A stretch of DNA of 64,000 nucleotides from Trypanosoma brucei (GCA_000002445.1 AL929603.2:992001-1056000), one strand, 5' to 3'; positions 1-52,713 are shown, numbered from the stretch's first letter. Notes: a model not told the origin generated them from the letters alone. Made by a program: numbers and translations.

Positions 1-3
1 ACA

Positions 4-1368
4 ATGAGGTGTGAAACAGTGTTTACTGTTGGGTTGTTTGCGATTGTTTTATCTCCTTCCTTTCAGGGGGATTTGGGGTCGTTCAAATGGAGCACAGAAT
101 TGATTGACTGGAGCAAGATTACAGAATATATTGATGAGAGTTATAAGCACCATAACGCTGGTGAGTTCGAGACACTGTGCAAGATTTACAGAATTACGCA
201 GGCAGAAGCTCCACAACCTTCCTTTGAGAATCGCGAGAAGGAAGGAGAGATTATGAATAAGTTGGAGGAAATGGTCAAGCAAACGGCGGGTGCTGGTGTT
301 AATAACAGTTCAAGCAAGTCAGGTAACAGCACGACAGCATATCAGGAGATAAGGAAACTGTTTGAGAAGGCGAAAGCGCTGAAGGAGGAAATTGAGGTGA
401 ACAGGACAAAAGCCTTAAATGCAAGTCGTTCTGCTGAAGATAATATGCTGAGAGCTGTGTATGGCGACGCTGTGGATGTTGCAAGAAATGAGAATAAAAC
501 TCTAGAGCAAGCCATGAGGGGAAACAAATCACTGCTGTTCAATAATGTCGACAATGCGGGCACGAGCTGCGGTTCTTATGGAGAGAAGTTTGTTGGAAAG
601 ACACTAATTAATGACTTTTTCTGCCTATGTGTGGGAGAGGCTATAGGTGGAACAGGGAGCGTAATAGAAAAAAAAGTGGAAAGGGGAGATGTTTTTAATA
701 CACATATATATAATGGGTTTAATTGTCCTTGTAAAGATGAGATAAGGAGGCCAAGTAATGGTAGTTGGACCATGATGGCTGAATTTTGTGCGAGTGGCGA
801 GGAGCTTTGCGAGCCTCAAAACGTCATATACAACCATACTGAAGCATGGAATGTGATCAGCAAAGCTTGTGTATACAAGAATATTGCATCGAATGTGAAA
901 ACCTTAAAGAGTGCACTAGCTCACTTTGATTCACTAGTAAATTTGGAACAGGATAAATATCAGGTGAAGGGCATTTTCGGTTATGTGAAAACTGAAAACA
1001 ACACAAATCACACCTGCACGGGTCATACTGCTGGATTCACATGTGTTAGTTACAGTTACACACTTGAAAATGGTGGGATTCCATGGTACAATCACCTTAC
1101 TAACGCTACTGAGCAACTGCAAGAAATGGATGAATATGCCAAAGAGGCTGACAGTCATCTTCATGAGTTGGAAGAATACCAACATGAGGCAGAGGAAATA
1201 TTTCTTGAGGTGAAGCTAGGAGGTGATGCGGAGCTATGGAAAAGCAACCGAGGTAAGGGTGATGGTGAAGGTGATAATACAGTGGTAGATAATGATGGAC
1301 TTACTCATTTGAATATTGCAACTGGGGGTTTTACATTATTAGTTTTATCTCTTATTTGTACGCTTTAG
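4..1368 (+). CDS. ESAG2-like GPI-anchored surface glycoprotein (copy 1), VSG-like N-terminal motif EFETLC. The start may lie upstream of the window edge.
   Basis: 455-codon ORF with a signal peptide (MRCETVFTVGLFAIVLSPSFQG), many N-x-S/T sites, about 20 Cys and a C-terminal hydrophobic GPI-type tail (GGFTLLVLSLICTL). It is the first gene of a conserved ESAG2>ESAG11>ESAG1 order and has a near-identical paralogue at 26092..27468. The family name rests on size, topology and synteny, not on an alignment. Confidence 0.6.
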   Translation: MRCETVFTVGLFAIVLSPSFQGDLGSFKWSTELIDWSKITEYIDESYKHHNAGEFETLCKIYRITQAEAPQPSFENREKEGEIMNKLEEMVKQTAGAGVNNSSSKSGNSTTAYQEIRKLFEKAKALKEEIEVNRTKALNASRSAEDNMLRAVYGDAVDVARNENKTLEQAMRGNKSLLFNNVDNAGTSCGSYGEKFVGKTLINDFFCLCVGEAIGGTGSVIEKKVERGDVFNTHIYNGFNCPCKDEIRRPSNGSWTMMAEFCASGEELCEPQNVIYNHTEAWNVISKACVYKNIASNVKTLKSALAHFDSLVNLEQDKYQVKGIFGYVKTENNTNHTCTGHTAGFTCVSYSYTLENGGIPWYNHLTNATEQLQEMDEYAKEADSHLHELEEYQHEAEEIFLEVKLGGDAELWKSNRGKGDGEGDNTVVDNDGLTHLNIATGGFTLLVLSLICTL

Positions 1369-1520
1369 TTTGCTTCTACGTTACCTATTATATTATGTTT
1401 TCTTTTGTTTTTTCGCTTCTTTGTTGCTGCGTCTATTTGGTATAATATGCTTATGTATGTATGTTCATGTATGTGTTAATTTCTCATGAGATGTAAATGT
1501 TTTAAATTATCCCATATAAA

Positions 1521-1536
1521 CTTGTTTTGTTTCTAG
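1521..1536 (+). promoter_or_regulatory. Polypyrimidine tract plus AG trans-splice acceptor upstream of the ESAG11-like gene
   Basis: cttgttttgtttctAG lies 8 nt before the ATG at 1544. The identical element precedes the paralogue at 27645. Confidence 0.5.
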
Positions 1537-1543
1537 ATAAGTA

Positions 1544-2662
1544 ATGAAGGTGGTATCACTTTTTCTTGCAGCGTGTCTGGCAGTATTGGGTGCTGTCAGT
1601 AAGGCAGTGACGGGGCAGCCTTCCGGTAAGGCCATGACACTCAAGGGAGCTGAAACATTATGCAATCTCAGTCATGCCTTGAGGGCCGTGAGTGCTAAGA
1701 CTCAGGACAAACAAAAGAATGCGACAGAAATGGTGGATAAGTTTCGGGAGTGGAGACATCGGCACGGTGTAAAGGGAAGGACATGGAGGGCAATAGTGCA
1801 GGGTTTGGAGAAGATAGGTGTTGTTAATGAAAGTTACATGGAAGGTATAAAGAAAACATATGCGGAAATGGAAAAGATAATGAACAATACAGACAAGGCT
1901 CTGCAGGTAATGGATACTAGTTTTTTAAACATTGTAAGAGTTTCCTATCATGTTGTGAATGCATCACTGTCAATAGGACAAGTGTTGAGGGATCTGGTAG
2001 TATTGTTTGAGCAAACAAAGGGAAGTGGAAACAATTGGTGCTGTTTGGTGAAGGAGAAAACTGCCTCTTCAGGAAATGGATGTGGAAGTGGGAGCGGTAG
2101 TGGAAGTGATGGCAAACACGAGTTGGCCGAGGCTCCAGAAGAGTGTAATATGTCTGTTACAAAGGATATGTCAGATTATGGTATACTTGCCACGCTAGAT
2201 AAATACACAAATAACCAAGATGTTGAATTAACAGTTAACGCGTCACCGAACTGCTGGATTATGGGTACGGAAGAGGTTGCAAATGGAGGAGCTGGATCTT
2301 TTATAGTGGGAACCACTGGAGGGTTCGTTACCTATAGCCAAGGTTCTGCCGTTATCCTGAAGTCTGGTGACATGGTGCTCAAACTTATCAGCAATTACAC
2401 TTCAATCAGAGACGGATATGAAAGTATTACAAAACAGTACCGTGATGTAGAGCCAACTCTTACTTCCTTTTCTGAGCATGAAAATAAACTAAAAAAATTG
2501 TTAACTCAGAGTCCGATGGTGCGTAGATATTTCAAGGAGAATGGAAGGAAACGCAAGGGAAGTGTCGATGACGATGATGTTATAGATGAAGAAGGATTTA
2601 CAATGAGGAAGCAACATACCCTAATGGGTTTAATGGCTTTTGCAGCAGTTTTGGTTATGTAA
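1544..2662 (+). CDS. ESAG11-like GPI-anchored surface protein (copy 1)
   Basis: 372 aa with a signal peptide (MKVVSLFLAACLAVLGAVS), an AETLCNLSHAL VSG-like motif, N-glycosylation sites and a C-terminal hydrophobic tail (MGLMAFAAVLVM). It sits between the ESAG2-like and ESAG1-like genes as in expression sites. Paralogue at 27645..28739. Confidence 0.55.
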   Translation: MKVVSLFLAACLAVLGAVSKAVTGQPSGKAMTLKGAETLCNLSHALRAVSAKTQDKQKNATEMVDKFREWRHRHGVKGRTWRAIVQGLEKIGVVNESYMEGIKKTYAEMEKIMNNTDKALQVMDTSFLNIVRVSYHVVNASLSIGQVLRDLVVLFEQTKGSGNNWCCLVKEKTASSGNGCGSGSGSGSDGKHELAEAPEECNMSVTKDMSDYGILATLDKYTNNQDVELTVNASPNCWIMGTEEVANGGAGSFIVGTTGGFVTYSQGSAVILKSGDMVLKLISNYTSIRDGYESITKQYRDVEPTLTSFSEHENKLKKLLTQSPMVRRYFKENGRKRKGSVDDDDVIDEEGFTMRKQHTLMGLMAFAAVLVM

Positions 2663-2740
2663 TTCAATGTTATATTTTATGCTACGGTTCTGTTATTGGT
2701 ATTGTGCGTTTGTGATACCCACTGCTTTTTTGTGTAATGG

Positions 2741-2789
2741 AGGGGATGTGTTTTTCCTCTTTTATATCTTTTGCCACATGTGATTGTAG
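2741..2789 (+). promoter_or_regulatory. Polypyrimidine tract plus AG splice acceptor upstream of the ESAG1-like gene
   Basis: tgtttttcctcttttatatcttttgcc followed by tgtAG just before the ATG at 2793. Conserved in the copy at about 28820..28868. Confidence 0.45.
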
Positions 2790-2792
2790 GTA

Positions 2793-3767
2793 ATGAAAGT
2801 TACGATAGCGGAATTGGTTGTTTTGTTATTTTCTGTAATTTGTATTGATGGGAAGGAGGACAATGGGTGTACGTTGATAACAGATTATCACGGTGATGCA
2901 CCTTTAAGTGAGTCCGTGTGTTATCTCAGTTGCCTTTCGGATGCATTAAATAAATTGTACAGCGAGGGAGAGAGGAGGCTGTTTGTGAATGAGGAAGTGT
3001 ATGCAAATGCATTTCGTATATTGGATGATATGGAAGGAAGAGCAGGTGAAAGTGTTAGATATTTGAGTATTATTAGTGTTGCGATGGTAGAGGAAAATAA
3101 TAGGTTGGAAAAGCTTATATCTCATGGAAATGCAATGGGAGACCTTGTAGCTAAGGCTGGTGGATTATTTGCTGAGGTTAATGAAAGTGTGAGGGCAGTG
3201 AGGAAAGAAATACCTGGTGCCCTTATAAAAGTGAATAAATATTATACGGCTATTGCTGAGATCACAAGGACTGTGTGGGATGATGTTAAAGCTGTGGAAA
3301 GTGGAAAGCACGAATGTAAAGATCAAGAGTTTAGAGGTGTTAAAGAGTTTGACGTTACATGTGGAGATAACGCATGTCTGCTGGCACATGGTGTGAGTGA
3401 GGGCGCCCTCAAACATTATAAGAATGGGCTTCTTGAAATAAACGTGATGAGTGGTTCTGTGAGCAAATGCCTCAACTTACCACGCAATAACCTGTATTTG
3501 AATGGCGCGATAAATAGTTCCCACGGCTTGCTGAAGTGGCGCCAACACAGTGCCGAAATGTTCCAGCTTGAACTTAGAGTAAAGAATATTTTTAATCCCC
3601 TCGTCGCATCTTTTGCTGCTGGACAATCGTCTTCAGTACTTGCCGAAATGATGGCCAATATCACTTCGCTTTACTCTCGTTTCAACGAAGTCCACAGGAG
3701 TTTCACTTCTTTGCTAGTCAACCCCAATCTCACTGACACCGGGGATGGTATTGATTCCATTTTTTAA
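2793..3767 (+). CDS. ESAG1-like membrane glycoprotein (copy 1)
   Basis: 324 aa with an N-terminal hydrophobic signal anchor (IAELVVLLFSVICI), no C-terminal hydrophobic tail, multiple N-x-S/T sites and the conserved motifs SVCYLSCLSDALNKLY and PFAAGQ. Last gene of the ESAG2/11/1-type triplet. Three further full-length paralogues lie in the window. Confidence 0.6.
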   Translation: MKVTIAELVVLLFSVICIDGKEDNGCTLITDYHGDAPLSESVCYLSCLSDALNKLYSEGERRLFVNEEVYANAFRILDDMEGRAGESVRYLSIISVAMVEENNRLEKLISHGNAMGDLVAKAGGLFAEVNESVRAVRKEIPGALIKVNKYYTAIAEITRTVWDDVKAVESGKHECKDQEFRGVKEFDVTCGDNACLLAHGVSEGALKHYKNGLLEINVMSGSVSKCLNLPRNNLYLNGAINSSHGLLKWRQHSAEMFQLELRVKNIFNPLVASFAAGQSSSVLAEMMANITSLYSRFNEVHRSFTSLLVNPNLTDTGDGIDSIF

Positions 3768-6700
3768 CGAACACGGTTATGAGCATGTTCTTAATACATT
3801 GTGTGTATGCGCCTACTTACGTGTCGTGTGTGTGTGTTTTGTGCTGGTGTGCGCCCGTGAAGTTTTTTTTCGCCTTGGAGGAGTAATAGCGGCGGTGAAT
3901 TTTCGACAATGGGTACGTGCATTGCGTTTCTACATGGCGTAGAAAATATTTCGTCTCATTTCTGTCGTGGTAATAAAGTCCCTAGTGTACTTTTAACGCA
4001 CTCGTGCATCCGGTCCGCGCTTTGTTTGTTGTGGTAATAAAAACCAGAGACCCATCTCAACTCTTTTTTTTTTTCGTGCCTCAACCTTGGATTGCCCACA
4101 AAGACTTAGCTATTTGTTGGTTAGGTGGCCAGGGCGTTAATATTTCCCCCAGTGTGCGTGATGTTTTTTAGTTTATGTTGGTGGGACAGAGTTGCCTCTT
4201 GAGAGGCAGCGACCGGGTGAATGCGGAACACTTGTGGTTCATGTGCGGCGAGTGAGCGGTTCTTTGGCTGCAGCGGTTAACGGCGGGGGCACTACGTGCT
4301 TGTTCGCTGTTGGCGGTTGGCCGCTGAACAACCATACAGGCCGTCGATGGATGGCGTTAAAAGTTCCTTATTTTTTCACCTTCATTCTATGGCACAACTT
4401 CTTATTGTTGAAGGGTCGCCTGGAATGTTACCTGACACACATCTTGGCATGCGTTCCCATAGTGATTGCCTTTGTTCAAACATTTTACCATAGATATATG
4501 GCGGCTGTAGTTCCCTCTGTACGTTGTCTGTGCTTTGCTCCCTGTTTGGGGTGCTTTCCATGCTCCTTTCCTTTCCCATTGATGCGCTTTTATCGTTAGG
4601 TTAGCCACTGAGCCGCGGCGCGATTGCAAAACGTAGGCGAAATGTGCAGGTAAAGCAGATCTTTGTTTCACATGGCTCCCCGTGGCGGGGACGCTTTGAG
4701 ACAGATGGACGAGACGACCTGCAACTTTGGTGGTCCCTTTTGTGAATCCCCCGATGCCCTTTCTGTGTGCTTCGCTGCTTCTTCACATGGCCGAAGTAAT
4801 GAATCCGGCGGCCCCACATCTTTTGTTTTCCTTTATCTTCTTGCTATTTGCAGAGAGTTTGAAGGTGCCAATATGCGTGACCCCAAGGCATGTGCACTTT
4901 CTTCCCTACACACATGCACACACACATCATCACATGGTTTTATGGGCCACCCCGTGATGCAGCCGATTCCTTGTTGTGGCATTTTACAGGTGCTTTTTAG
5001 ACCCGTGTCTACGCTTATGATGATTAGGTTGTTTGCAAAGAAGCTGTTCCTCATTCCTGATGATTTGTTTACCTTTCGGTTGAGGGGGCCCCTTCTGATT
5101 ATGAGCAGCATTGATCCAGGGAACGGATCGTTGCGGCACCCCGCAGGTTCGGAAAATGGCGTTTCACAATATCTTGTTTGTTTTCACTCTGGGGGTTTAA
5201 CTGTACAGGAACCGTCCCATTCATCTCGCTGGGTGGGGATATATTTTGCAGCGACTTAGCGCCACAGCGATTTACAAACGATCCACTGGGTCGAATGCCT
5301 GTGCCGCCTTTTTTTCCTGTTTTCCAACCATATTTCAACCAAACAGCTGTGCCACAGCGTCTGCTGTTGAGCATTTGAAGCCCTGACTATCAAGGCTAAA
5401 GTAAAAGACCCAGTTGATTCTTTAGTGTCCTCGCAATTGTTCCTTTTGTTGACTCGCAGAGGGCACTGATGAGGCGATTGACTGGAACGGTGCCACCTTT
5501 GTTGCAAGCTTGTTTACCTTGAAGATCGGTATTATAATGCCCTTTTATCAACCATTTTTGGTACTGCACTGTTATCCACGCATTGGCCCTATAACTTCAA
5601 TAGGCTTTATCTTTCTTTCCTCCCGAGGCCCTAAACTTCCTCTCCGTGCATATTATTTCCTGCAACTGCGGTTCCTGTGGGGAACTTACCTGACACTAAC
5701 AACAGTCCCTTCTTATAGGCAACTTGCGCCTACAGTTCCCCACTCGCGGCCACCTTGCTCTTGGGGCTTCCAGAACTTTTGTGGAACTCCTCCCGCGAAT
5801 CATGTAGCCGTCCCTTTATCGGTATTGTCCTCTTGACAACCATTTCTGATATGCTCCGTAACCTCGGTGTAAACGCCTCATTCAACGGCTCCCAGCCTTC
5901 TGATTCCATAGCCATTGTTTTAAATGTTTCTCCCCTCCACCCCTCAGGATGTTTCGTTGGATCGCACTTTTCACGTTACGTATCTTCGCACCCTCTTTTC
6001 TCGCATCACCAAGTTTCCTCATTCCACTTCCGATATTTGTCAGTTCTTTGCTCCAGAAGTGTTGCACCAGTCTATCTGTTTTAGGAGTTCTCGTTTCCGC
6101 TTTCATTCTCACCACAGACAGTAGCACTGCCTCCTTCACATCATCCGCTTCTAATGGGAGTATGACTGAACCTCTTTCTTCAGCCCACGCAGTCTGATTC
6201 GTTGGGGTGTTATCCAACCATTTTTTAAATAGCATGCGAATAATGCACGGCGGTGGTGGCAAAAATTGGCTTTATCAGCATTCACACTGACGTTTGGTTT
6301 GAGTGTGATTAAATTGCGATTGCTAGATATATAATGGCAGCGGGACTCGGAAAACACGGCGACAGAGATGTGACTTGCAAAGCATATTCCCACTTCTGTG
6401 AGGACGGATACCCCTCTTCCGTAGGAAAAACTTGCCGATCCCAGTCTGTGTGATCGTGAAATCGGTCTGAGCTCCCTTTCGTCCAGCCAAACTTGTTCCT
6501 CTTAACTTTCTTTTGGCATCCGAAAGAATTGTCGGGCCAACGTCCTTCTTAACGCCACCTCTATACAGTGGTGACGACAGACCACAGATGCCCAAAGAAG
6601 TGCGTTTGAATGCACAGAAGGATAAATAAATAACACTTTGAACTGCAGAGAACCGACGGCGTTCACCTTCCCATCTGTGTGGAAGATACCGGATCGTAGC

Positions 6701-12307: not shown

Positions 12308-13123
12308 ATGACAACTGAAGAGGGAAAAGTAGAGACACCAGTGGCCAAAGGAGCGTTTAGCCCGACGCGCCACGTCATGTTTGCCGACGAGGTCACGGAA
12401 GTGCAACCACAACACAATGATATGAACGCCGGCAATGGGTTGGATGCTGTAGAGGGAAACCACACCAATCACGAGGAAGTGCCCCATCATTTGCGTCAAA
12501 ATTACGGCACCGGTGGCGATTCAAATGACAACGGTGAAGCGGGTGAAGGAGATTTCGGCCGTGGTAAAAGAGGTGGTCGTAATCGAAACCGTAGGCGTCA
12601 CAATGCGAAACCAATTTTGAAGGCTCTCGTGACGGAGGCCAATTCCGAAGCGGATGCTGAAGAGGACTTGCGCGTGCGCACGACACTTGTGGTAGCGGAA
12701 GAAAATGCCCAACGCCTTCGCGTTGAACATCAGGAACTTGAAGATCACGCTGATATTGGTTCACTCTTCAAGGCATCTGACAAGACCTTGTGGGGCCGTT
12801 ATTCACTAAAAGGTAAGCGAGTGATGAATACTTCCAGTGAAGAAGGCACTCCCATGAGATATTCGACAATGTGTGATGCTTCAACGACTTCAGACAACTT
12901 GAGCTGGAGAAATCAAGAGGAAATGCAAGACGCATCAACGCAAGCTGAATTTGAGGAGATTGTTGAAGACACACCGAGGGCCATCAGTGGTTCGGGTCCG
13001 CTGGCGAGATTACTTGGGGGGGTTGGTGGTCACCGTGACGAGTGGTATCGGCGTATTTGGAAATTATTTGTGCTTCTTGTTGTTCTTTTTTATGTGCGCC
13101 GGTTTGTTCCTCGGCTGCGGTAA
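12308..13123 (+). CDS. Hypothetical acidic tail-anchored protein
   Basis: 271-aa ATG-initiated ORF, isolated in an ORF-poor region. It has an acidic and Gly/Arg-rich low-complexity N-terminal half (GRGKRGGRNRNRRRH) and a single C-terminal TM segment (IWKLFVLLVVLFYV). A polypyrimidine tract lies upstream (ccctttttccccttttt, about 12255). No family recognised. Confidence 0.4.
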   Translation: MTTEEGKVETPVAKGAFSPTRHVMFADEVTEVQPQHNDMNAGNGLDAVEGNHTNHEEVPHHLRQNYGTGGDSNDNGEAGEGDFGRGKRGGRNRNRRRHNAKPILKALVTEANSEADAEEDLRVRTTLVVAEENAQRLRVEHQELEDHADIGSLFKASDKTLWGRYSLKGKRVMNTSSEEGTPMRYSTMCDASTTSDNLSWRNQEEMQDASTQAEFEEIVEDTPRAISGSGPLARLLGGVGGHRDEWYRRIWKLFVLLVVLFYVRRFVPRLR

Positions 13124-15803
13124 CTAGTTTGTGATGCAGAGGCTGTGCCTTCTACGGAGTAACACTGTATATGACTGTATTTATCTGTGTCCTATTTGTC
13201 ATGCAACGCAACATGTAAGCGAAGCGGTTTCTCCTCAGTGCCTGCGATGTCAGACATGTTGCTCACTTAGTGGGGGTAGCATATATGTATATATTTGTGG
13301 TGTCATTTTCTTGCAAGACGGACGGTTTCACGTACTAAGAAAAAAGTGTGTGTGTTCGGGGTTAAATATTTCTATGCAGACAGCAGTGCCACGGTAGTTG
13401 GAGTCTCTGCTATTGAAGACTGAAAATTCAGCTTTAAGATAAGATATAGCAAAAAGAGAAAAGAGAACACTTGATCGAACTAAACAAATCACTATTGCGG
13501 AGGGCTTAGTCAGCGGTATCAATGCAAATAAATACATGTGCGTGCATACATATATGTGTATGTGAGTGAGCCGATTGCCGGCGTGCGTGGCGTAGGTAAA
13601 GGAAGGTGATCACATCACCCCCATTTTGCGAAGCGAGGAGAGCGCACAGTTCGGTTGGTTAGCGAGTAGGAGTAAAAATTGAAGGAAGGACCTTGTCATA
13701 CTTTGCATTATTTGGAAGTCATAGCACTGTTTCCCGCCCCATTCAAAAGAAAATTTGTTTACATGTTTCGTAACAGAGATAGAAACACGGTTTCCACTGT
13801 CGTCACCTCCTTCGTTTCAAACCCTATTTCATCCATTTGTTTCCTCTCCCTTTTCGATAGTTTGTGAAAGCCACAACCACCTTTTTTTGTACCTTAGTTT
13901 ACTCTCGTGTCACCACCGAGCTACCAGTTGCATGTCTGGCTAGGCATATGCCGACACATTTTTAGTGGAATCGCCGTTGACACAATTTGCCAATCAGTGT
14001 CTCAGTGCTTGGGTTATAAACGTGCATAACTCGGACACCGGACACGAGCTTGTGCTGAAAATTGTGTCCCTGTTGTCATCCAGAGGTTCAGGGAGTTTAC
14101 ATTTTGAAGAATGAGGGTCTTCGATTGACTTCCTGGGACGTATCGAATACGTCAAGCACAGTCGAATGCAGTAAAGCAGTGCCTTGTCGAGAATACATCG
14201 AGACAATGGCAGCAGACACACTACTCTACTTCATTTGGTAGTGTAGCATTATTTTTTTTATTTTTGTCCGAATACTTTCGTATCCCAACACCAGAGGCTT
14301 CTCGAGCTGTTTGCCTTGTTTTGGCTTATGGTGCTATGGTTGTGTGGCCAAGAAGTGAGGTCACAGTTCGCTAAGGGATGTGCACCAGCACGTTAACGGG
14401 GCGGGTATGGGTGCAGTTGTGTTGTATGCATACATCTGTCGGTGTGCCGAGTTATCCTATAGAGCGCAAACGCCAACCGGTGGGCCGGGAAGTAGAACAG
14501 GAGTGTTCATTTCGTTTGAGCCGGAGCGGAAGCAGTGGGTCACAGCACCCAGCTCAAAGAAGGGGAGTTAACTGAGGTGTGTGATTATTGAGAAAGGAAC
14601 TGAAATTGTTGGGAATTGAAGCATCCCGAACTTTCCCCATCCCTTTGGTCATCAGACAGCCGTAATGATTTTCCCACAATGGGCTCTGTGCAAAGTTCAT
14701 TTGCTCTAATGGCTGAGATGTGATTCTCGCCCTCGCGCGATCAGCGGGGAGGAACAGCACCGTTACATTGAGTTAGGAGCCATGTTTAGTTCAACTTTTT
14801 CTGTCACTGGGAGTTGATCAGAATGAGAGGATGTGATTTTTATTTCCCCTTAATGGTGTACATTATGTGCGACACTGGCGTGTGTCAATTTTAACAGCTA
14901 GAATCGTTGGTTTAATTTGCTGTGCGCTAATTAGAGTCGTCGTACGCTCAGGGAAAGGTGGCGCATGCTCTTCTGGGAAGGGCTGTTTCTCAACTAACCC
15001 AGATTAATTGGTTGCTTTGTTGGGTGTGTGTGTGTAATTCCTTTATGTGTTAATTCTCTAGTGAGGTATCTAGTGCTCTGCCGCTTGGTCACTGTCTCTG
15101 TACAGGTGTGGAAGTTGCCATCATCTGATGCCGACCACCCCGTTTCGATGTTAACAAAGACAGTGTTTCTTACACGCACCGGGAAAACACTATTTGATGG
15201 CGCGTTTACTTGACTAGCCCCATGCTTCTTACGGCCAGCGTATGTAACGCCTTCCAGGAATGGATGAACCGAATCGGAGGTGGCAGTGTCTTCAGCCACT
15301 TCGCAAGGGACTTAAAGGAACGACAAAGTTGTGTTGTATTGGTGGGGTTCTTCTTCCCGTATCTTCATTTGACCGTAAGTTTCCACGACTATTGAAGGGC
15401 TCTGTGTTGCGCAATTGAAAATGCGTGTTGTTATGCGATTCTGATATGCTTTTGTAGTCCCGTTTTACTGATTTTTCCTCCCCACAAAAGTGGAGGAGCA
15501 TCCCGTTTTTTTTTCTCGCCGGGGCCAGTCGCCGCTGGTGCGCTGCTGGCTTCTATGGTTGGCTGCCAGGTTCCGGAGCATTTAGTCCCTAAAGTTCCAC
15601 GGCAGCGAAGGATTGTGTCTCCCTCCTCTGTTAATCAGTGTCACCACCGGTGTGCATTTCCACGCTATTGCGCGTACGAAGACTCACTTGCTCCGTATCT
15701 CTTTCCCTTTATTTATTTAATATTGTAACCCCTTTTGGTGGAGCATTTATTTCCATATAGGGTAGCATTTACCTTCAGTGAAATAAAAAGAACAAAGACA
15801 GGG

Positions 15804-18011
15804 ATGGGTGGTGTGGTCGGCAAGATACCTGTTCTGCTTCGTGGTGGTAAGACTGTGGATGGACTTAACTTCCATGGCATGGTACCCATTGATACGGAAG
15901 AGCTTACCGAATTGTTGACTGTGTTAAACTGTCGAGGATACGATACGAAGGTGGAAGTCCATCCTTTACCTGCTGGCTTTCCCCATACGGGTGAGGTATT
16001 CAGCACATATGAACTTGTACTGAGGGGTATAGTGCTTGAACGTGGTGATTTGGAGTTCATAGGAAATTATGCATCACTTAACAAACTGCATTTTATCGAA
16101 TGTTCGGGCTCATGCGACCTGGGTATGTTGTCGGGGCATTCGTTTCTTTCAGAGTTGCGCGTGGACGTTGATGGTGAAGTGAGCCATTATAAAGCGCTGC
16201 GGGAGCTCCCTTCGTTGAGAACCCTTTGGCTGCGCAACAGTAACATGACACTCACTGATTTCTTTCATGTGGGGGAAGTAGATACATTGGAAAGCCTTAC
16301 CCTTCGAGGAGCGTTGAACTTCAAGTGTCTGGAGGCTGTAGCGAGGTTGCCGCGGTTGAGGGCGCTGGATTTGAGTGAGACATTGGTCAATGATAAATGC
16401 CTCCACGCTATAAGCGCCTGCAAAACCCTGCAGCAACTTGGCCTCAGCTCCTGCAAGCGGCTGCGAGATGTTAGCCCCCTTACTCAGATTGCCAGTTTGG
16501 AGGAGTTGAACCTTAGTCACTGTGAAAATCTTAAGGAAGTGGGTGCCCTTTACAGACTTAGCCACTTATTTAGGTTAGACCTTAGGGGTGTGCACCTCAC
16601 TTATCGTGTTGTTTACAGTCTAAGCAAGTGCACGGGACTGACTGAGCTTTACGTTTCATCCTGCGAAGGGTTATCGGGCGTGGCTTGGCTTTCCAACCTT
16701 GAATCGCTAGGGGATTTGGATGTTCAGTGGCGTAAAAACTTGAAGCATACTGGGGACGTTCTTGCCTGCTTGCCGTTGCTACGAGTGCTGGATTTGAGCG
16801 GCACATCGATTAGCAACGAATCCCTTTGGAATATTAGTGAAAGTAAGCTTCTGAGAAGGCTTGACCTCTCGTTCTGTGGCGGTGTGAAAGATATAAGCCC
16901 GATATCAGATATTGTAACACTAGAAGAGTTGAATCTTAAGGGTTGCACGAGTATTACCGAAGGAGTGGATAAACTTGGAAATTTAGTGAATCTTCATATA
17001 CTGAATATGAGTAACACCCCTCTTCAATCCGGTTTTCTCTACAATATCAGCAGCATCGAAAGTCTCGTGGAACTTGATCTTTCTTCATGCTGGGGTGTAG
17101 CATCATTGGATTCTTCAGTGCAGACAGCGGTGCGTATGCGGAAGGGTTCCTATCCATTAGCGCGTCACATCGAAGGCATAAATGCGCTTGGAAGGCTCCC
17201 GAAACTTCGATTGCTAAACATGAGTAGCACTCCCGTAACAGATGAGTGCCTTCATGGATTGCAAATGTGCAAGAGTTTGGTGTGGCTCAATCTTTCTTTA
17301 TGTGCCAACCTCACGGATGTAAGTCCCCTTTCAAGTGTCAAAACACTGGAGGAAGTAGACCTCGGTTGTTGTGGAAACTTGAAGTGGGGTGCAGGTTCCC
17401 TCCGCCGACTGCCACAGTTACGCATCCTGGATTTAAAAAATACAGTCATTACTGATCACTGCCTTGGTGATGTCACTTACGGAGGGGGCGTGGTTAGTCG
17501 AATGTTGGGACGGTGTGGGATGGCTGACCTGAGTTTTTCTCGTTGGTCCATCCGTCGTGGTGGCAATTTGGTGAGGTTGGACCTCTCGTCGTGCTGGGGG
17601 CTCACTGATATTGCCCATCTGACAAGCATAACCACACTGGAGGAGTTGAGATTTACGGGATGCAGAAACTTAAAGGATGGTGTGGATGCCCTCGGCCAAT
17701 TACCAGTTCTTCACCTGCTGGACTTGAGTGGCACTTCCATAACCGATGACTCTCTCCAAGGATTAAGTACGTGTAGAAGCCTCGTCACGCTTAATATTTC
17801 GTCGTGCGCTAACCTAACAGATGTAAGTCCTCTTTCACGGATTTCATCACTTGAGGAACTAAACCTTCAGAAAAGCAAACATATCAGGAGAGGCATCGAT
17901 GAATTAGTGAGCCTTCCGCGTTTGTACCTTGTATATTTGTGTAGAGCAGACTTTAGCCGCGGAGTCGCAGAAGAGTTAGAAAAACGCGGTATTGTAGTTA
18001 AACAAATGTAA
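15804..18011 (+). CDS. Leucine-rich repeat protein, ESAG8-related (LRRP type), lacking an obvious N-terminal RING finger
   Basis: The long ORF in the track starts at a TTG (15735). The first ATG is 15804 (MGGVVGK...), and a polyY tract plus AG at about 15700..15760 lies upstream. There are more than 15 tandem cysteine-containing LRRs of about 23-25 aa (L..LDLS.C..L.DVSPLS....LEELNL). Confidence 0.65.
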   Translation: MGGVVGKIPVLLRGGKTVDGLNFHGMVPIDTEELTELLTVLNCRGYDTKVEVHPLPAGFPHTGEVFSTYELVLRGIVLERGDLEFIGNYASLNKLHFIECSGSCDLGMLSGHSFLSELRVDVDGEVSHYKALRELPSLRTLWLRNSNMTLTDFFHVGEVDTLESLTLRGALNFKCLEAVARLPRLRALDLSETLVNDKCLHAISACKTLQQLGLSSCKRLRDVSPLTQIASLEELNLSHCENLKEVGALYRLSHLFRLDLRGVHLTYRVVYSLSKCTGLTELYVSSCEGLSGVAWLSNLESLGDLDVQWRKNLKHTGDVLACLPLLRVLDLSGTSISNESLWNISESKLLRRLDLSFCGGVKDISPISDIVTLEELNLKGCTSITEGVDKLGNLVNLHILNMSNTPLQSGFLYNISSIESLVELDLSSCWGVASLDSSVQTAVRMRKGSYPLARHIEGINALGRLPKLRLLNMSSTPVTDECLHGLQMCKSLVWLNLSLCANLTDVSPLSSVKTLEEVDLGCCGNLKWGAGSLRRLPQLRILDLKNTVITDHCLGDVTYGGGVVSRMLGRCGMADLSFSRWSIRRGGNLVRLDLSSCWGLTDIAHLTSITTLEELRFTGCRNLKDGVDALGQLPVLHLLDLSGTSITDDSLQGLSTCRSLVTLNISSCANLTDVSPLSRISSLEELNLQKSKHIRRGIDELVSLPRLYLVYLCRADFSRGVAEELEKRGIVVKQM

Positions 18012-23394: not shown

Positions 23395-24174
23395 ATGCTC
23401 GGGCTTACAACAATCTTATTTTCGACACTAATAGTGATTGCATCAAGCGGTGAATCGAAAGCTTCAGTGGGCACTTCGGTCGCCGAGCAGAGATGCGATG
23501 GATACTGGGACTCCTCCAGTGGGGGCGGACGGTGCCGGCCTTGGAGTACGGGAGCAGTCGATCCAAAGACTGTAAGCACGCGGCAGACTCCAGTTTCCCC
23601 AGTTCTTAAAAGCCAGAAACCAGATGTGACCGGTGACGATGCCCAAGTACACAAAATGCAGGAGGGTGCTGCATCGAGTCCAATCGTAGAGAGTGGAGCT
23701 AGTCAATCGGCTCCTGGTACTGAGGAAACCTCTAACAAAGTGACCGTGCAACTAAGTGGTGTTGCAATTGGTGGCAGGAGTGACAAGATTGAACAGCCAT
23801 CTCTCAGCTCCCGAATCTCCGAGCCGGCGGCAAACGCGGCGACTGACTACAGCGAACAGAAAGTGGGTCAAGAAGGGCAGAGATTAGGAACTGCAGAGGG
23901 ACTAGAAGGCGCGAAATACAACGGCAGAGATGGTGGGAAAGAGGGGAAAAAGGTTTCAGAGGAGCAAACACCAGGGCCTGATAGCCGGCACGCCTTGCAG
24001 ATGTCGATGCGGGGCGCAGCTTCGCCGCGAGGGCATAGCCATATGGCGGGAGTCACGACAGATGATTTGGATGCGCAGGACCCAGCACAAAACAGTGCCC
24101 ATGAGAGGAGAAGCGCGGCGCAAAAAAGATGTGCAGTAGTGGTCGCCGCAGCGTTCAGCTTCATATGCCTTTGA
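23395..24174 (+). CDS. Small secreted, GPI-signal-bearing, Gly/Ser-rich surface protein of unassigned family (paralogue at 43260)
   Basis: 259 aa with a signal peptide (MLGLTTILFSTLIVIASSG), the motif CDGYWDSS and a C-terminal hydrophobic tail (CAVVVAAAFSFICL). The 5' flank (cccccggaggaaggaaATG) and several hundred bp of both flanks are conserved with the 43260 copy. Confidence 0.45.
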   Translation: MLGLTTILFSTLIVIASSGESKASVGTSVAEQRCDGYWDSSSGGGRCRPWSTGAVDPKTVSTRQTPVSPVLKSQKPDVTGDDAQVHKMQEGAASSPIVESGASQSAPGTEETSNKVTVQLSGVAIGGRSDKIEQPSLSSRISEPAANAATDYSEQKVGQEGQRLGTAEGLEGAKYNGRDGGKEGKKVSEEQTPGPDSRHALQMSMRGAASPRGHSHMAGVTTDDLDAQDPAQNSAHERRSAAQKRCAVVVAAAFSFICL

Positions 24175-26091: not shown

Positions 26092-27468
26092 ATGAACAGG
26101 ATCACGATGAGGTATGAAATAGTGTTTACTGTTGGGCTGTTTGCGACTGTTTTATCTCCTTCCTTTCAGGGCGATATGGTTGGGTACAAGTGGGCCACAG
26201 AATCTATAAACTGGAGTGCGATTACCAGGCTCGTCGGCGTCAACGACAAGTACCACAACGCTGGTGAGTTCGAGACACTGTGCAGGATTTACAGAATTAC
26301 GCAGGCTGAAGCTCCACAACCTTCCTTTGAGAATCGCGAAAAGGAAGGAGAGATTATGAATAAGTTGGAGGAAATGGTCAAACAGACGGCGGGCGCTGGT
26401 GTTAATAACAGTTCAAGCAAGTCAGGTAGCAGCACAACAGCATATCAGGAGATAAGGAAACTACTTGAAAAAGCGAAAAAACTGAAGGAAGAAATTGAGG
26501 CGAATAGGACAAAAGCCTTATACGCAAGTCGTTCTGCTGAAGATAATATGCTGAGAGCTGTGTATGGCGACGCTGTGGATGTTGCAAGAAATGAGAATAA
26601 AACTCTAGAGCAAGCCATGAGGGGAAACAAATCACTGCTGTTCAATAATGTCGAAAATGCGGGCACGAGCTGCGGTTCTTATGGAGACAAGCTAGTTGGA
26701 AAGACACTAATTAATGACTTTTTCTGCCTATGTGTGGGAGAGGCTAAGAAAGTACAAATCAAGAAAAGTGTAGCAAAAGATGAATATGACCCAACCTATG
26801 ACGGTGTTTATAATGGGTTTAATTGTCCCTGCAAGGATGAGATGAGGAGACCGAGAAGTGGTAGTTGGACCATGATGGCTGAATTTTGTGTAAGTGGGGA
26901 GGATAATTGTAACCCTGAAAACATAAAATACAACTATACTGAGGCATGGGATGTGATCAGCAAAGCTTGTGTATACAAGAATATTGCATCGAATGTGAAA
27001 ACCTTAAAGAGTGCACTAGCTCACTTTGATTCACTAGTAAATTTGGAACAGGATAAATATCAGGTGAGGGGTATTCTTGGGTATGCAAATGCTGAAGAAA
27101 ACACTGATCACATATGTACGGGTCATACTGCTGGATTCACATGTGTTAGTTACAATCACACACTTGAAAATGGTGGGATTCCATGGTACAATCGTCTTAC
27201 TAACGCTACTGAGCAACTGCAAGAAATGGATAAATATGCCAAGGAGGCTGACAGTCATCTTCATGAGTTGGAAGAATACCAACATGAGGCAGAGGAAATA
27301 TTTCTTGAGGTGAAGCTAGGAGGTGATGCGGAGCTATGGAAAAGTAGCCAAGGTAAGGGTGATGGTGAGGGTGATAATACAGTGGTAGATAATGATGGAC
27401 TTACTCATTTGAATATTGCAACTGGGGGTTTTACATTATTAGTTTTATCTCTTATTTGTACGCTTTAG
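26092..27468 (+). CDS. ESAG2-like GPI-anchored surface glycoprotein (copy 2). The homologous start is probably the ATG at 26107 (MRYEIVF...).
   Basis: 458 aa, near-identical to 4..1368 over most of its length including the C-terminal GPI signal. It carries discrete divergent patches (about 26167..26273 and 26734..26820). Confidence 0.6.
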   Translation: MNRITMRYEIVFTVGLFATVLSPSFQGDMVGYKWATESINWSAITRLVGVNDKYHNAGEFETLCRIYRITQAEAPQPSFENREKEGEIMNKLEEMVKQTAGAGVNNSSSKSGSSTTAYQEIRKLLEKAKKLKEEIEANRTKALYASRSAEDNMLRAVYGDAVDVARNENKTLEQAMRGNKSLLFNNVENAGTSCGSYGDKLVGKTLINDFFCLCVGEAKKVQIKKSVAKDEYDPTYDGVYNGFNCPCKDEMRRPRSGSWTMMAEFCVSGEDNCNPENIKYNYTEAWDVISKACVYKNIASNVKTLKSALAHFDSLVNLEQDKYQVRGILGYANAEENTDHICTGHTAGFTCVSYNHTLENGGIPWYNRLTNATEQLQEMDKYAKEADSHLHELEEYQHEAEEIFLEVKLGGDAELWKSSQGKGDGEGDNTVVDNDGLTHLNIATGGFTLLVLSLICTL

Positions 27469-27644
27469 TTTGCTTCTACGTTACCTATTATATTATGTTT
27501 TCTTTTGTTTTTTTCGCTTCTTTGTTGCTGCGTCTATGTGGTATAATATGCTTATGTATGTATGTTCATATGTGTGTTAATTTCTCATGAGATGTGAATG
27601 TTTTAAATTATCCCATATAAACTTGTTTTGTTTCTAGATAAGTA

Positions 27645-28739
27645 ATGAAGGTGGTATCACTTTTTCTTGCAGCGTGTCTGGTAATATTGGGTGCTGCCAG
27701 TAAGGCAGTGACGGAGCAGCCTTCCGGTAAGGCCATGACACTCAAGGGAGCTGAAACATTATGCAATCTCAGTCATGCCTTGAGGGTTGTGGGTGCTAAG
27801 ACTCAGGACAAACAAAAGAATGCGACAGAAATGGTGGATAAGTTTCGGGAGTGGAGACATCAGCATGGTGTAAAGGGGAGGACATGGAAGGCAATAGTGC
27901 AGGGTTTGGAGAAGATAGGTGTTGTTAATGAAAGTTACATGGAAGGTATAAAGAAAACATATGCGAAAATGGAAAAGATAATGAACAATACAGACAAGGC
28001 TCTGCAGGTAATGGATACTAGTTTTTTAAACATTGTAAGAGTTTCCTATCATGTTGTGAATGCATCACTGTCAATAGGACAAGTATTGAGGGATCTGGTA
28101 GTATTGTTTGAGCAAACAAAGGGAAGTGAAAATAGTTGGTGCTGTTTGGTAAAAACTGCCTCTTCAGGAAATGGATGTGGAAGTGATGGTAAACGCGAGT
28201 TGGCTAGCGCTCCAGAAGAGTGTAATATGTCTGTTACAAAGGATATGTCAGATGATGGTGTGTTGACTACGCTAAATAATTATAAAACCGATCAACCGGT
28301 TGAATTAACGGACAATAACAGCGCTAAGTGCTGGATCATGGGTACGGAAGAGGTTGCAAATGGAGGAGCTGGATCTTTTATAGTGGGAACTACTGGAGGT
28401 TTCGTTACCTATAGCCAAGGTTCTGCCGTTATCATGAAATCTAGTGACATGGTGCTCAAACTCATCAGCAATTACACTTCAATCAGAGACGGGTATGAAA
28501 GTATTACACAACAGTACCGTGATGTAGAGCCAACTCTTACTTCCTTTGCCGAACTTGAAAATAAACTAAAAAAATTGTTAACTCAGAGTCCGATGGTGCG
28601 TAGGTATTTCAAGGAGAATGGAAGGAAACGCAAGGGAACTGTCGGTGACGATGATGTTATAGATGAAGAAGGATTCACAATGAGGAAGCAACATACCCTA
28701 ATGGGTTTAATGGCTTTTGCAGCAGTTTTGGTTATGTGA
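27645..28739 (+). CDS. ESAG11-like GPI-anchored surface protein (copy 2)
   Basis: 364 aa, a paralogue of 1544..2662. It lacks the Gly-Ser repeat expansion present in copy 1. Confidence 0.55.
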   Translation: MKVVSLFLAACLVILGAASKAVTEQPSGKAMTLKGAETLCNLSHALRVVGAKTQDKQKNATEMVDKFREWRHQHGVKGRTWKAIVQGLEKIGVVNESYMEGIKKTYAKMEKIMNNTDKALQVMDTSFLNIVRVSYHVVNASLSIGQVLRDLVVLFEQTKGSENSWCCLVKTASSGNGCGSDGKRELASAPEECNMSVTKDMSDDGVLTTLNNYKTDQPVELTDNNSAKCWIMGTEEVANGGAGSFIVGTTGGFVTYSQGSAVIMKSSDMVLKLISNYTSIRDGYESITQQYRDVEPTLTSFAELENKLKKLLTQSPMVRRYFKENGRKRKGTVGDDDVIDEEGFTMRKQHTLMGLMAFAAVLVM

Positions 28740-28871
28740 TTCAATGTTATATTTTATATGCTACGGTTCTGTTATTGGTATTGTGCGTTTGTGATACCCA
28801 CTGCTTTTTTGTGTAATGGAGGACATGTGTTTTTCCTCTTTTATATCTTTCGCCACATGTGATTGTAGGTA

Positions 28872-29855
28872 ATGAAAGTTACGATAGCGGAATTGGTTGT
28901 TTTGTTATTTTCTGTAATTTGTATTGATGGGAAGGAGGAGAATGGGTGCACGTTGATAACAGATTATCACGGTGACGCACCTTTAAGTGAGTCCGTATGT
29001 TATCTCAGTTGTCTTTCAGATGCATTAAATAAATTATACGCTGATGGAGAGAACAAACTGTTTGTGAATGAGGAAGTGTATGCAAATGCATTTCGTATAT
29101 TGGATGATATGGAAGGAAGAACAGGTGAAAGTGTTAGATATTTGAGTATTATTAGCGGTGTAATGGAAGGGAAACATGATAAATTGAAAAAGCTTATATC
29201 GTATGGAAATGCAATGGGGGACCTTGTAGCTAAGGCAGGTGGATTATTTGCTGAGGTTAATGAAAGTGTGAGGGCAGTGAGGAAAGAAATACCTGGTGCC
29301 CTTATAAAAGTGAATAAATATTATACGGCTATTGCTGTGATCACAAGGACTGTGTGGGATGATGTTGAGGCATTGGAGCGTGACAGTGATCCGAACTGCC
29401 ATGGCGAAAAAATTAAAAATGTTGGTGAGTTCCAAGTTACGTGTGGCGAACATTTCTGCCCACTAAAAGAAGGTGTTAACGAAAGTACTCTTCAGAAATA
29501 TAAGGATGGATGCCTTGAAATAAATGTTCAAGATAAGTCTGGCCAAATAAGTGAATGCCTTAACTTACCAAGGAATAGTTTGTACAAAAATGGCGCAGTA
29601 AAGTATTCAAGTGACGGAACGAATTGGTATGGAAACGGTAATACTTATTTTCAACTCAAACTCCACGTTCATAGTATGCTTTCCCCTCTCACAATTCCCC
29701 TTGGTGCTGGCCAACCACCTTCTGCACCCCTAGACATGATGGCTAGTATTACTTCCCTGTACTCTCGCTTCAACGAGATACACAAAAACTTTACTTCATT
29801 GCTACTTAACACCAATTTTACTGGAATTGTGAATAGTAGTAATTCCGATTTTTAA
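28872..29855 (+). CDS. ESAG1-like membrane glycoprotein (copy 2)
   Basis: 327 aa. The N-terminal 130 or so residues are near-identical to copy 1, while the central and C-terminal regions diverge (mosaic). Confidence 0.6.
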   Translation: MKVTIAELVVLLFSVICIDGKEENGCTLITDYHGDAPLSESVCYLSCLSDALNKLYADGENKLFVNEEVYANAFRILDDMEGRTGESVRYLSIISGVMEGKHDKLKKLISYGNAMGDLVAKAGGLFAEVNESVRAVRKEIPGALIKVNKYYTAIAVITRTVWDDVEALERDSDPNCHGEKIKNVGEFQVTCGEHFCPLKEGVNESTLQKYKDGCLEINVQDKSGQISECLNLPRNSLYKNGAVKYSSDGTNWYGNGNTYFQLKLHVHSMLSPLTIPLGAGQPPSAPLDMMASITSLYSRFNEIHKNFTSLLLNTNFTGIVNSSNSDF

Positions 29856-50130: not shown

Positions 50131-50145
50131 CTGTTTCCGCTGGCG

Positions 50146-52629: not shown

Positions 52630-52713
52630 ATAGCAGCCATCTCAGCTTCTACATGGGGGCCAAGACGATAAGTACTGAGAGCTTTTTATCTAGCACTCGT
52701 ACAGGCACACACC

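What the first reader, a model, noticed from the sequence alone, without database searches (positions are those of the whole stretch)
631..720. Discrete hypervariable patches inside otherwise near-identical ESAG2-like paralogues (mosaic, gene-conversion signature)
The two ESAG2-like genes are identical over long stretches, including the N-terminal motif region, the C-terminal third and the GPI signal. They differ almost completely in two short blocks. One is residues about 21-55 (64..170 vs 26167..26273: DLGSFKWSTELIDWSKITEYIDESYK vs DMVGYKWATESINWSAITRLVGVNDK). The other is residues about 210-235 (631..720 vs 26734..26820: EAIGGTGSVIEKKVERGDVFNTHI vs EAKKVQIKKSVAKDEYDPTYDGV). Sharp boundaries like these suggest segmental gene conversion or positively selected surface loops, not uniform drift.
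Basis: seen in the sequence. Interest (0 to 1): 0.55.

Follow-up and report, generated by a model that had tools for sequence, protein, structure and literature searches.

The report
Mosaic ESAG2 paralogues, swapped variable cassettes
Two copies of a trypanosome surface-protein gene (ESAG2) are near-identical except for a few short blocks that have been swapped in from other family members by gene conversion, a real pattern that is already well documented for this gene family.

Summary
ESAG2 copy 1 (4..1368) and copy 2 (26092..27468) are 89% identical in DNA, and 66% of their differences fall in four blocks that make up 18% of the gene. The largest are 69-153 and 644-708. Permutation shows this clustering is far beyond chance. 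Synonymous sites are saturated inside the blocks (pS 0.87) and nearly unchanged outside them (pS 0.11). The blocks therefore have a much older ancestry than their flanks and are not recent point mutations. Each block variant recurs at 98-100% nucleotide identity in other ESAG2 genes of T. b. gambiense and T. b. equiperdum, in different flanking contexts. Copy 2 switches from a gambiense-P0002-like sequence to a copy-1-like sequence at 758-780 (max-chi2 129, p<0.0005). The family PHI test gives z = -16. At the syntenic T. b. equiperdum locus, the gene in copy 2's position carries copy-1-type blocks. The same blocks are the family-wide hypervariable, low-confidence loops of a class-B VSG-like fold. 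By chain topology they probably lie on the membrane-distal side. Segmental gene conversion is supported. Positive selection is not shown. ESAG mosaicism, including ESAG2, was published in 2008, so novelty is low.

The parts
4..1368 (+). ESAG2 copy 1 (W1), 454 aa, intact
   Evidence: ORF. Pfam VSG_B, E = 1e-27. Homologues named ESAG2 at 70-92% identity.
26092..27468 (+). ESAG2 copy 2 (W2), 458 aa, intact. The Met aligned with the start of copy 1 is at 26107.
   Evidence: ORF. Pfam VSG_B. Alignment.
69..153 (+). Variable block 1 of copy 1 (residues 23-50, the mature N-terminus)
   Evidence: 36 of 85 nt differ from copy 2. pS 0.88. Only 2 of 85 nt differ from T. b. gambiense P0014.
26172..26256 (+). 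Variable block 1 of copy 2
   Evidence: 1 of 85 nt differs from T. b. gambiense P0002.
644..708 (+). Variable block 2 of copy 1 (residues 213-235). This is the block named in the finding. It lies between the invariant anchors CTATGTGTGGGAGAGGCT and TATAATGG.
   Evidence: 45 of 65 columns differ from copy 2. 0 of 65 differ from P0014. The protein is identical in T. b. equiperdum P0020. pLDDT is below 50 over residues 212-240.
26747..26808 (+). Variable block 2 of copy 2, 3 nt shorter than in copy 1
   Evidence: 0 of 62 nt differ from P0002.
791..850 (+). Variable block 3 of copy 1 (residues 263-277). The partner in copy 2 is 26891-26950.
   Evidence: 16 mismatches in 60 nt. Family-wide pN peak at residues 265-278.
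968..1017 (+). Variable block 4 of copy 1 (residues 322-338). The partner in copy 2 is 27068-27117.
   Evidence: 16 mismatches in 50 nt. The quartet topology reverts to (W1,P0003)(W2,P0002) at sites 976-997.
26858..26880 (+). Inferred recombination breakpoint in copy 2 (copy-1 coordinates 758-780). Upstream it is P0002-like and downstream it is copy-1-like.
   Evidence: Max-chi2 129. 104 of 108 discriminating sites are P0002-like upstream and 82 of 101 are W1-like downstream. 0 of 2000 permutations reach the observed value.
1..3771 (+). Duplicated ESAG2 / ESAG11-like / ESAG1 block, first copy. It is cut by the start of the window.
   Evidence: Self-BLAST: 87% identity to 26104-29859. The identity profile is patchy.
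26104..29859 (+). Duplicated ESAG2 / ESAG11-like / ESAG1 block, second copy
   Evidence: Collinear with T. b. equiperdum L007.

Best explanation
The two genes are ESAG2 paralogues: GPI-anchored surface proteins of Trypanosoma brucei with a class-B VSG-like fold. They sit in a duplicated ESAG2-ESAG11-ESAG1 block.

Their pattern of identical stretches with scrambled patches is a recombination mosaic. Short tracts, roughly 60-250 bp, are copied between ESAG2 paralogues by non-reciprocal homologous recombination (gene conversion). Conserved framework sequence serves as the homology arms. The framework is thereby kept homogeneous (concerted evolution). Old, highly diverged variants of a few loop-coding blocks persist as discrete cassettes and are reassorted among copies.

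What is shown:
- the clustering of differences;
- the older ancestry of the patches;
- the same cassettes in other paralogues and strains, in different contexts;
- a breakpoint in copy 2;
- cassette exchange at the orthologous locus of another strain.

What is inferred:
- the non-reciprocal mechanism;
- the direction of each transfer;
- that the blocks are exposed membrane-distal loops. Their diversity would then be either tolerated or favoured (antigenic or ligand-related). The length variation of block 2 would arise partly from slippage in K/E-rich (AAG/GAA) sequence.
For: - **Clustering far beyond chance**.
- **Synonymous divergence.** Nei-Gojobori pS is 0.88 in patch 1 and 0.87 in patch 2, against 0.11 in the flanks. 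Among codons that encode the same amino acid, 13 of 31 differ in the patches and 22 of 336 in the flanks (Fisher p = 3.6e-7). The patches therefore coalesce much earlier than the flanks.
- **Cassette sharing at nucleotide level**:
  - W2 vs T. b. gambiense P0002: 1/85 and 0/62 differences in patches 1 and 2, but 105/589 downstream of position 780.
  - W1 vs P0014: 2/85 and 0/65 in the patches, but 32/490 between them. That is more than W1 vs W2 over the same stretch (24/490).
- **Quartet site patterns** switch from (W1,P0003)(W2,P0002) over 73-758 to (W1,W2)(P0002,P0003) over 786-1363, with a reversion at 976-997. Max-chi2 is 129, p<0.0005.
- **PHI test** on 7 sequences and 283 informative sites: observed 0.394, permuted 0.495 +/- 0.006, z = -16.
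- **Orthologous locus.** T. b. equiperdum L007 is collinear with window 16332-36986. The ESAG2 in W2's position carries W1-type sequence at 38/39 sites over 69-237 and 61/61 sites over 644-827. It carries W2-type sequence in block 4 and in the ESAG1 3' half.
- **Family-wide variability.** pN peaks at residues 31-45, 91-105, 211-234, 265-278, 324-338 and 414-441. Four of these peaks (31-45, 91-105, 211-234, 414-441) fall in the segments with pLDDT below 50. Blocks 3 and 4 score pLDDT 55-75.
- **Literature.** GARD finds breakpoints every ~129 bp in T. b. brucei ESAG2, and type A/B recombinants are described (PMC2533676). GARD and PHI show chimaeras in most ESAG alignments, and each expression site is described as a mosaic (PMC2567434).
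Against: - Only eight nucleotide sequences were available, six of them from one T. b. gambiense genome. Donors and directions of transfer cannot be assigned.
- pS in each patch rests on only 12-15 synonymous sites. The patch 2 alignment contains indels.
- The structural placement of the blocks rests on chain topology. The model has low confidence exactly at the blocks. No coordinates were available to measure exposure.
- The junction in copy 2 could in principle be an assembly chimera between paralogues. I could not check read support.
Confidence: 0.85

Rival explanations
1. The 3.8-kb block duplicated recently. Positive (diversifying) selection then acted on point mutations in exposed loops, with no recombination.
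For: The blocks coincide with family-wide peaks of non-synonymous diversity. They also coincide with predicted loops. Young et al. reported sites under diversifying selection in ESAG2.
Against: Synonymous sites in the blocks are saturated while the flanks are at 0.11. pN/pS is below 1 in every block. Each block variant exists unchanged (0-2 nt different) in genes of other subspecies, so the variants predate the duplication. Tree topology changes along the gene.
Confidence: 0.04
2. The blocks are unconstrained, possibly disordered linker loops. They diverge neutrally through substitutions and slippage indels. Purifying selection alone, with no conversion, keeps the rest of the gene similar.
For: Block 2 varies in length from 0 to about 50 residues across the family and is K/E-rich in many members. 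Family-wide pN/pS there is about 0.85, close to neutral. pLDDT is below 50.
Against: Purifying selection on the protein does not explain the low synonymous divergence of the flanks (pS 0.04-0.13) beside saturated blocks. It also does not explain the shared cassettes in different contexts, or the significant breakpoint and PHI tests. Relaxed constraint probably explains why the blocks can be so diverse. It does not explain how the two copies came to differ only there.
Confidence: 0.08
3. Assembly artefact: near-identical paralogues were collapsed or chimerically joined, which created artificial mosaics.
For: ESAG arrays are repetitive and hard to assemble. The window contains a 3.8-kb repeat 26 kb apart.
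Against: Both block variants occur independently in the T. b. gambiense DAL972 and T. b. equiperdum assemblies. Both window ORFs are intact. Equivalent mosaics were reported from sequenced cloned telomeres (PMC2567434, PMC2533676).
Confidence: 0.03

Closest known systems
ESAG2 mosaicism in T. brucei expression-site repertoires (Young et al. 2008, PMC2533676; Hertz-Fowler et al. 2008, PMC2567434)
   Same: Same gene family and same phenomenon. Examples: recombinant ESAG2 genes with a type A N-terminus (residues 1-54) on a type B body, or a foreign tract at residues 302-359. GARD breakpoints occur on average every 129 bp. PHI is significant. Sites under diversifying selection are reported. The block boundaries found here (residues ~50, ~213-277, ~322-338) fit those tract sizes.
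   Different: Those studies gap-stripped their alignments and removed ambiguously aligned regions. The length-variable block 2 was therefore probably not analysed as such. Here the two copies lie in one 64-kb stretch with no 70-bp repeats or telomere. The exchange is also seen at a syntenic locus in another strain.
Hypervariable region of the ESAG6/ESAG7 transferrin receptor
   Same: A VSG-fold, expression-site-encoded surface protein family. Variation is concentrated in short blocks on the membrane-distal surface and is shuffled among expression sites.
   Different: For ESAG6/7 the ligand (transferrin) and the position of the variable residues are known experimentally. For ESAG2 no ligand or function is known. 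Exposure of the blocks is only inferred here.
Segmental gene conversion that builds mosaic VSG genes
   Same: Short homologous tracts are copied between diverged paralogues of the same fold, using conserved flanks.
   Different: VSG mosaics are assembled during an infection in the active expression site and selected by antibody. The ESAG2 cassettes here are germline variants shared between subspecies.

Membership tests
ESAG2 (T. brucei expression-site-associated gene 2; Pfam PF13206 VSG_B fold) | Sequence membership: VSG_B domain and closest relatives annotated ESAG2/GRESAG2 | tested here: met
   PF13206 E = 1e-27 and 5e-27. 16 hits named ESAG2/GRESAG2 at 46-92% identity.
ESAG2 (T. brucei expression-site-associated gene 2; Pfam PF13206 VSG_B fold) | Class-B VSG N-terminal-domain fold | tested here: met
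   AF2 model, pTM 0.66, core pLDDT 85-96. The best PDB matches are VSG615, mVSG1954, VSG11 and VSG3, with E from 5e-8 to 4e-4. A profile search hits the same chains.
ESAG2 (T. brucei expression-site-associated gene 2; Pfam PF13206 VSG_B fold) | Gene order ESAG2-ESAG11-ESAG1 downstream of ESAG8/ESAG3 | tested here: met
   ESAG1 (PF03238, E = 1e-109) lies two genes downstream of both copies. An ISG-like ORF of 364-372 aa lies between them. The ESAG8 LRR gene is at 15735..18011, upstream of copy 2. The canonical order is given in PMC2567434. ESAG3 itself was not identified.
ESAG2 (T. brucei expression-site-associated gene 2; Pfam PF13206 VSG_B fold) | Location in a telomeric bloodstream expression site (promoter, 70-bp repeats, terminal VSG, telomere) | tested here: not met
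   No tandem repeats of score >= 80 anywhere in the 64 kb. The only A-type VSG is on the minus strand, behind an ingi element. The genes may therefore be ESAG2-family copies outside the terminal part of an expression site (GRESAG-like), or the window may end before the terminus.
ESAG2 (T. brucei expression-site-associated gene 2; Pfam PF13206 VSG_B fold) | N-terminal signal peptide and C-terminal GPI-addition signal | tested here: inconclusive
   Hydrophobic N- and C-termini are visible in the sequences and are conserved with annotated ESAG2. No predictor was run. GPI anchoring of ESAG2 is known from the literature (PMC11298655).
Segmental gene-conversion mosaic | Differences clustered, with long identical runs, beyond chance | tested here: met
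   Permutation tests.
Segmental gene-conversion mosaic | Different genealogies along the gene (phylogenetic incongruence, breakpoints) | tested here: met
   Quartet patterns and max-chi2. PHI z = -16. Sliding nearest-neighbour analysis.
Segmental gene-conversion mosaic | Divergent tracts have older ancestry (elevated dS) and identifiable relatives elsewhere | tested here: met
   pS 0.87 against 0.11. Cassettes differ by 0-2 nt from P0002, P0014 and L007.
Segmental gene-conversion mosaic | Non-reciprocal transfer (conversion rather than crossover) | not testable with these tools
   This needs both products of an event, or a population sample of the same loci.
Positively selected surface loops | dN/dS > 1 in the blocks | tested here: not met
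   Pairwise pN/pS is 0.36 in patch 1 and 0.57 in patch 2. The family-wide maximum is about 0.85 in patch 2. dS is saturated, so the test is weak. No site-model test was possible.
Positively selected surface loops | Blocks lie on the exposed, membrane-distal face | tested here: inconclusive
   Blocks 2-4 lie between bundle helix 2 (residues 106-153) and helix 3 (residues 360-404). In class-B VSGs that segment forms the top lobe, and the bottom lobe lies between helices 1 and 2 (PMC10501684).

The most novel reading that the evidence does not exclude
The four blocks may together form one membrane-distal surface of ESAG2. Its discrete, old cassettes are shared between T. b. gambiense, T. b. equiperdum and this strain. 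They could be kept by balancing selection because they form a polymorphic ligand- or host-factor-binding site. ESAG2 would then be a second host-range-type receptor, like the ESAG6/7 transferrin receptor, rather than a mere antigenic decoy or a set of unconstrained loops.
Probability: 0.15. Interest if true: 0.55.

Novelty: already known. Interest (0 to 1): 0.15.

Why it matters
ESAG2 has no known function, although it is a cell-body surface protein co-transcribed with the VSG. Knowing that its variation sits in a handful of exchangeable loop cassettes on a conserved scaffold tells an experimenter which residues to swap or mask when looking for a ligand or for antibody epitopes. It also illustrates how expression-site genes stay homogeneous and diverse at once. 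As a genome-scan finding it adds one clean worked example, including an inter-strain cassette swap at a syntenic locus, to a phenomenon described in 2008. It does not change the picture.

Tried and rejected
- **Compensated frameshift in block 2.** Rejected. The nucleotides themselves are only about 30-43% identical. The other frames contain stops.
- **Ongoing local hypermutation.** Rejected. Each cassette is 0-2 nt different from its counterpart in other subspecies, the same as or less than its flanks.
- **Tandem or 70-bp repeats, or a telomere, to place the genes in an expression site.** None found.
- **DNA for the TREU927 paralogues P0004, P0006 and P0011.** Not on record. The nucleotide analyses therefore rest on T. 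b. gambiense and T. b. equiperdum sequences.
- **Deeper profile search to enrich the alignment for structure prediction.** It added only four sequences. The model stayed at mean pLDDT 67.7, and the blocks are unresolved.
- **Sequence search of the PDB with the single protein.** Only a marginal hit. The profile search and the fold search were needed to establish the class-B VSG relationship.
- **Origin of the window.** No protein cluster at 90% identity or more matches either full-length copy. The strain remains unidentified. The syntenic T. b. equiperdum region is only 90.8% identical.

Full report
**What is there**

The window opens with an intact 454-aa ORF (4..1368). A second intact ORF of 458 aa lies at 26092..27468. 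Both hit Pfam VSG_B. Their closest database relatives are T. brucei proteins annotated ESAG2 or GRESAG2, at 46-92% identity. Each is followed by an ISG-like ORF of 364-372 aa, in the position of ESAG11, and then by an ESAG1 gene (PF03238). The three genes form a 3.8-kb block that is duplicated, 1-3771 against 26104-29859, at 87% identity. An ESAG8-type LRR gene lies upstream of copy 2. The window also holds further ESAG1 genes, VSG-related ORFs, an ingi retrotransposon and a minus-strand A-type VSG. No 70-bp repeat array or telomere is present.

**Check of the observation**

The quoted coordinates translate to the quoted peptides. Over 1353 aligned nucleotides the two copies differ at 149 positions. 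The differences cluster at:
- 69-153 (36 of 85 nt);
- 644-708 (43-45 of 65 nt, with a 3-nt length difference);
- 360-402, 729-758, 791-850 and 968-1017, less strongly.

Shuffling the mismatch positions never gives more than 26 mismatches in a 90-nt window, against 38 observed. It never gives an identical run longer than 103 nt, against 131 observed. Four blocks covering 17.7% of the gene hold 66% of the mismatches. The same patchiness extends into the ESAG11-like gene (about 2046-2256) and the 3' half of ESAG1 (3274-3771).

**Point mutation or imported sequence?**

If the blocks were recent point mutations fixed by selection, synonymous sites inside them should be as little changed as in the flanks. 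They are not.
- Nei-Gojobori pS is 0.88 in block 1 and 0.87 in block 2, against 0.11 in the flanks. pN/pS is below 1 throughout.
- Counting only codons that encode the same amino acid in both copies, 13 of 31 differ inside the blocks and 22 of 336 outside (Fisher p = 3.6e-7).

The blocks therefore have a much older common ancestor than the surrounding sequence. That requires recombination.

**Related sequences**

I obtained DNA for six T. b. gambiense DAL972 paralogues.
- Copy 2 is 98-100% identical to P0002 from the start codon to nt 758. It differs by 1/85 nt in block 1 and 0/62 nt in block 2. Downstream of 780 it differs at 105/589 positions, and there it is closest to copy 1.
- A max-chi2 scan puts the switch between 758 and 780. 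Of the discriminating sites, 104/108 are P0002-like upstream and 82/101 are copy-1-like downstream (chi2 = 129; none of 2000 permutations reach it).
- Copy 1 carries the P0014 versions of block 1 (2/85 differences) and block 2 (0/65). Between the blocks it is closer to copy 2 (24/490) than to P0014 (32/490).
- Quartet site patterns change from (W1,P0003)(W2,P0002) over 73-758 to (W1,W2)(P0002,P0003) over 786-1363, with a short reversion at 976-997, which is block 4.
- A PHI test on seven sequences (283 informative sites) gives 0.394 against 0.495 +/- 0.006 for permuted site orders (z = -16).

**The syntenic locus in another strain**

A T. b. equiperdum contig, CM010672.1 897931-918584 (L007), is collinear with window 16332-36986 at 90.8% identity. 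It holds an ESAG2 in the position of copy 2. That gene is a pseudogene with two frameshifts. It carries copy-1-type sequence at 38/39 discriminating sites over 69-237 and at 61/61 sites over 644-827. In block 4 and in the 3' half of ESAG1 it carries copy-2-type sequence. The ESAG11 variable block is copy-1-type. The same cassettes therefore occupy different loci in different strains. This is what conversion between paralogues predicts. It is hard to obtain in any other way.

**What the blocks are in the protein**

Across the family, non-synonymous diversity peaks at residues 31-45, 91-105, 211-234, 265-278, 324-338 and 414-441. pN/pS in block 2 is about 0.85, and it is 0.05-0.2 in the framework. 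Block 2 varies in length from nothing to about 50 residues and is K/E-rich in many members.

An AlphaFold2 model (mean pLDDT 67.7, pTM 0.66) has a confident helical core. pLDDT falls below 50 at residues 1-51, 98-106, 212-240 and 412-441. These four segments cover four of the six variability peaks. Blocks 3 and 4 score 55-75. Its best structural matches are the class-B VSGs VSG615, mVSG1954, VSG11 and VSG3 (profile hits).

In class-B VSGs the bottom lobe lies between bundle helices 1 and 2, and N-glycans sit there (PMC10501684). In ESAG2 the short loop at residues 97-105, which carries NxS/T sequons, lies between helix 77-96 and helix 106-153. Blocks 2-4 lie between helix 2 and helix 3 (residues 360-404), so by topology they belong to the membrane-distal top lobe. 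Block 1 is the mature N-terminus and should also be at that end. This placement is an inference. I had no coordinates, and the model is unreliable exactly there. ESAG2 is reported to be a GPI-anchored protein of the cell-body membrane (PMC11298655).

**Mechanism**

The best-supported reading has two parts.
- Frequent short-tract homologous recombination among ESAG2 paralogues keeps the framework nearly identical, synonymous sites included.
- A few loop-coding blocks persist as old, discrete variants bounded by invariant anchors. For block 2 the anchors are CTATGTGTGGGAGAGGCT and TATAATGG. These blocks are reassorted among copies.

Whether their diversity is favoured or merely tolerated is not settled. 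dN/dS never exceeds 1 in my crude estimates, and dS is saturated. The K/E-rich length variation points to slippage and relaxed constraint as one source of the variants.

**Comparison with what is known**

This is the published picture for ESAGs.
- Young et al. 2008 sequenced ESAG2 repertoires from three subspecies. They described type A/type B recombinants, such as a type A N-terminus (residues 1-54) on a type B body and a foreign tract at residues 302-359. GARD breakpoints occurred every 129 bp on average in T. b. brucei ESAG2. They also reported diversifying selection at some sites.
- Hertz-Fowler et al. [quoted passage not shown] They concluded that each expression site and each ESAG is a mosaic, with pseudogenes as possible donors.
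- Both studies gap-stripped their alignments, so the length-variable block 2 itself may not have been analysed. That is a detail, not a new phenomenon.

**Verdict**

The positive-selection alternative is not demonstrated. The finding is an ordinary, already documented property of this gene family, and interest is low.

Noticed in passing
window 1544-2662 and 27645-28739 (variable part about 2046-2256 / 28147-28333): The ESAG11-like pair downstream of the ESAG2 copies has its own sharply bounded divergent block (40-77% identity, including a GSGSGS-type indel) inside an otherwise 93-100% identical gene. In T. b. equiperdum L007 this block is copy-1-type, although the locus is syntenic with copy 2.
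   Followed up: partly
window 2793-3767 and 28872-29855: The ESAG1 pair is 90-100% identical over the 5' half and only 33-70% identical over the 3' half (3274-3771). The switch occurs within about 30 nt, which suggests another recombination boundary. The equiperdum orthologue is copy-2-type there.
   Followed up: partly
L007 9733-11100 (T. b. equiperdum CM010672.1): The ESAG2 at the locus syntenic with copy 2 is a pseudogene with two frameshifts, yet it carries intact copy-1-type cassettes. This fits the idea that pseudogenes act as cassette reservoirs.
   Followed up: partly
window 40145-41116 and 47808-48794: Two further ESAG1 genes (PF03238, E about 1e-116) are only about 72% identical to each other and to the two ESAG1 genes of the duplicated block.
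   Followed up: no
window 35246-36607 and 21265-22302: Two VSG_B ORFs are not ESAG2 (about 20% identity to it). The first is 91% identical to a T. b. equiperdum 'VSG' (P0018) and close to VSG 1125.4270. It is conserved in synteny, so it looks like a VSG-related gene. The second is shorter (345 aa).
   Followed up: partly
window 49439-54754: An ingi-type non-LTR retrotransposon, with endonuclease plus reverse transcriptase, RNase H and C2H2 zinc-finger ORFs in a row.
   Followed up: no
window 58169-59584 (minus strand): An A-type VSG ORF (weak PF00913 hit) lies on the opposite strand to all the ESAGs, beyond the ingi element. The whole window lacks 70-bp repeats and telomeric repeats, so it does not look like the terminal part of a bloodstream expression site.
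   Followed up: partly
window 15735-18011: An ESAG8-type leucine-rich-repeat gene (758 aa ORF from TTG) lies between the two ESAG2-11-1 blocks. ORFs without a Pfam hit at 12308-13123, 23395-24174 and 43260-44153 occupy the position where ESAG3 would be expected. They were not identified.
   Followed up: no
window 26092-26106: Copy 2 has an in-frame upstream ATG that adds MNRIT before the Met aligned with the start of copy 1. The same extension is present in T. b. gambiense P0014.
   Followed up: no
window 934-1185 and 27034-27285 (minus strand): 83-aa antisense ORFs lie inside the near-identical 3' parts of both ESAG2 copies. They are conserved only because the sense sequence is, and are probably spurious.
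   Followed up: no
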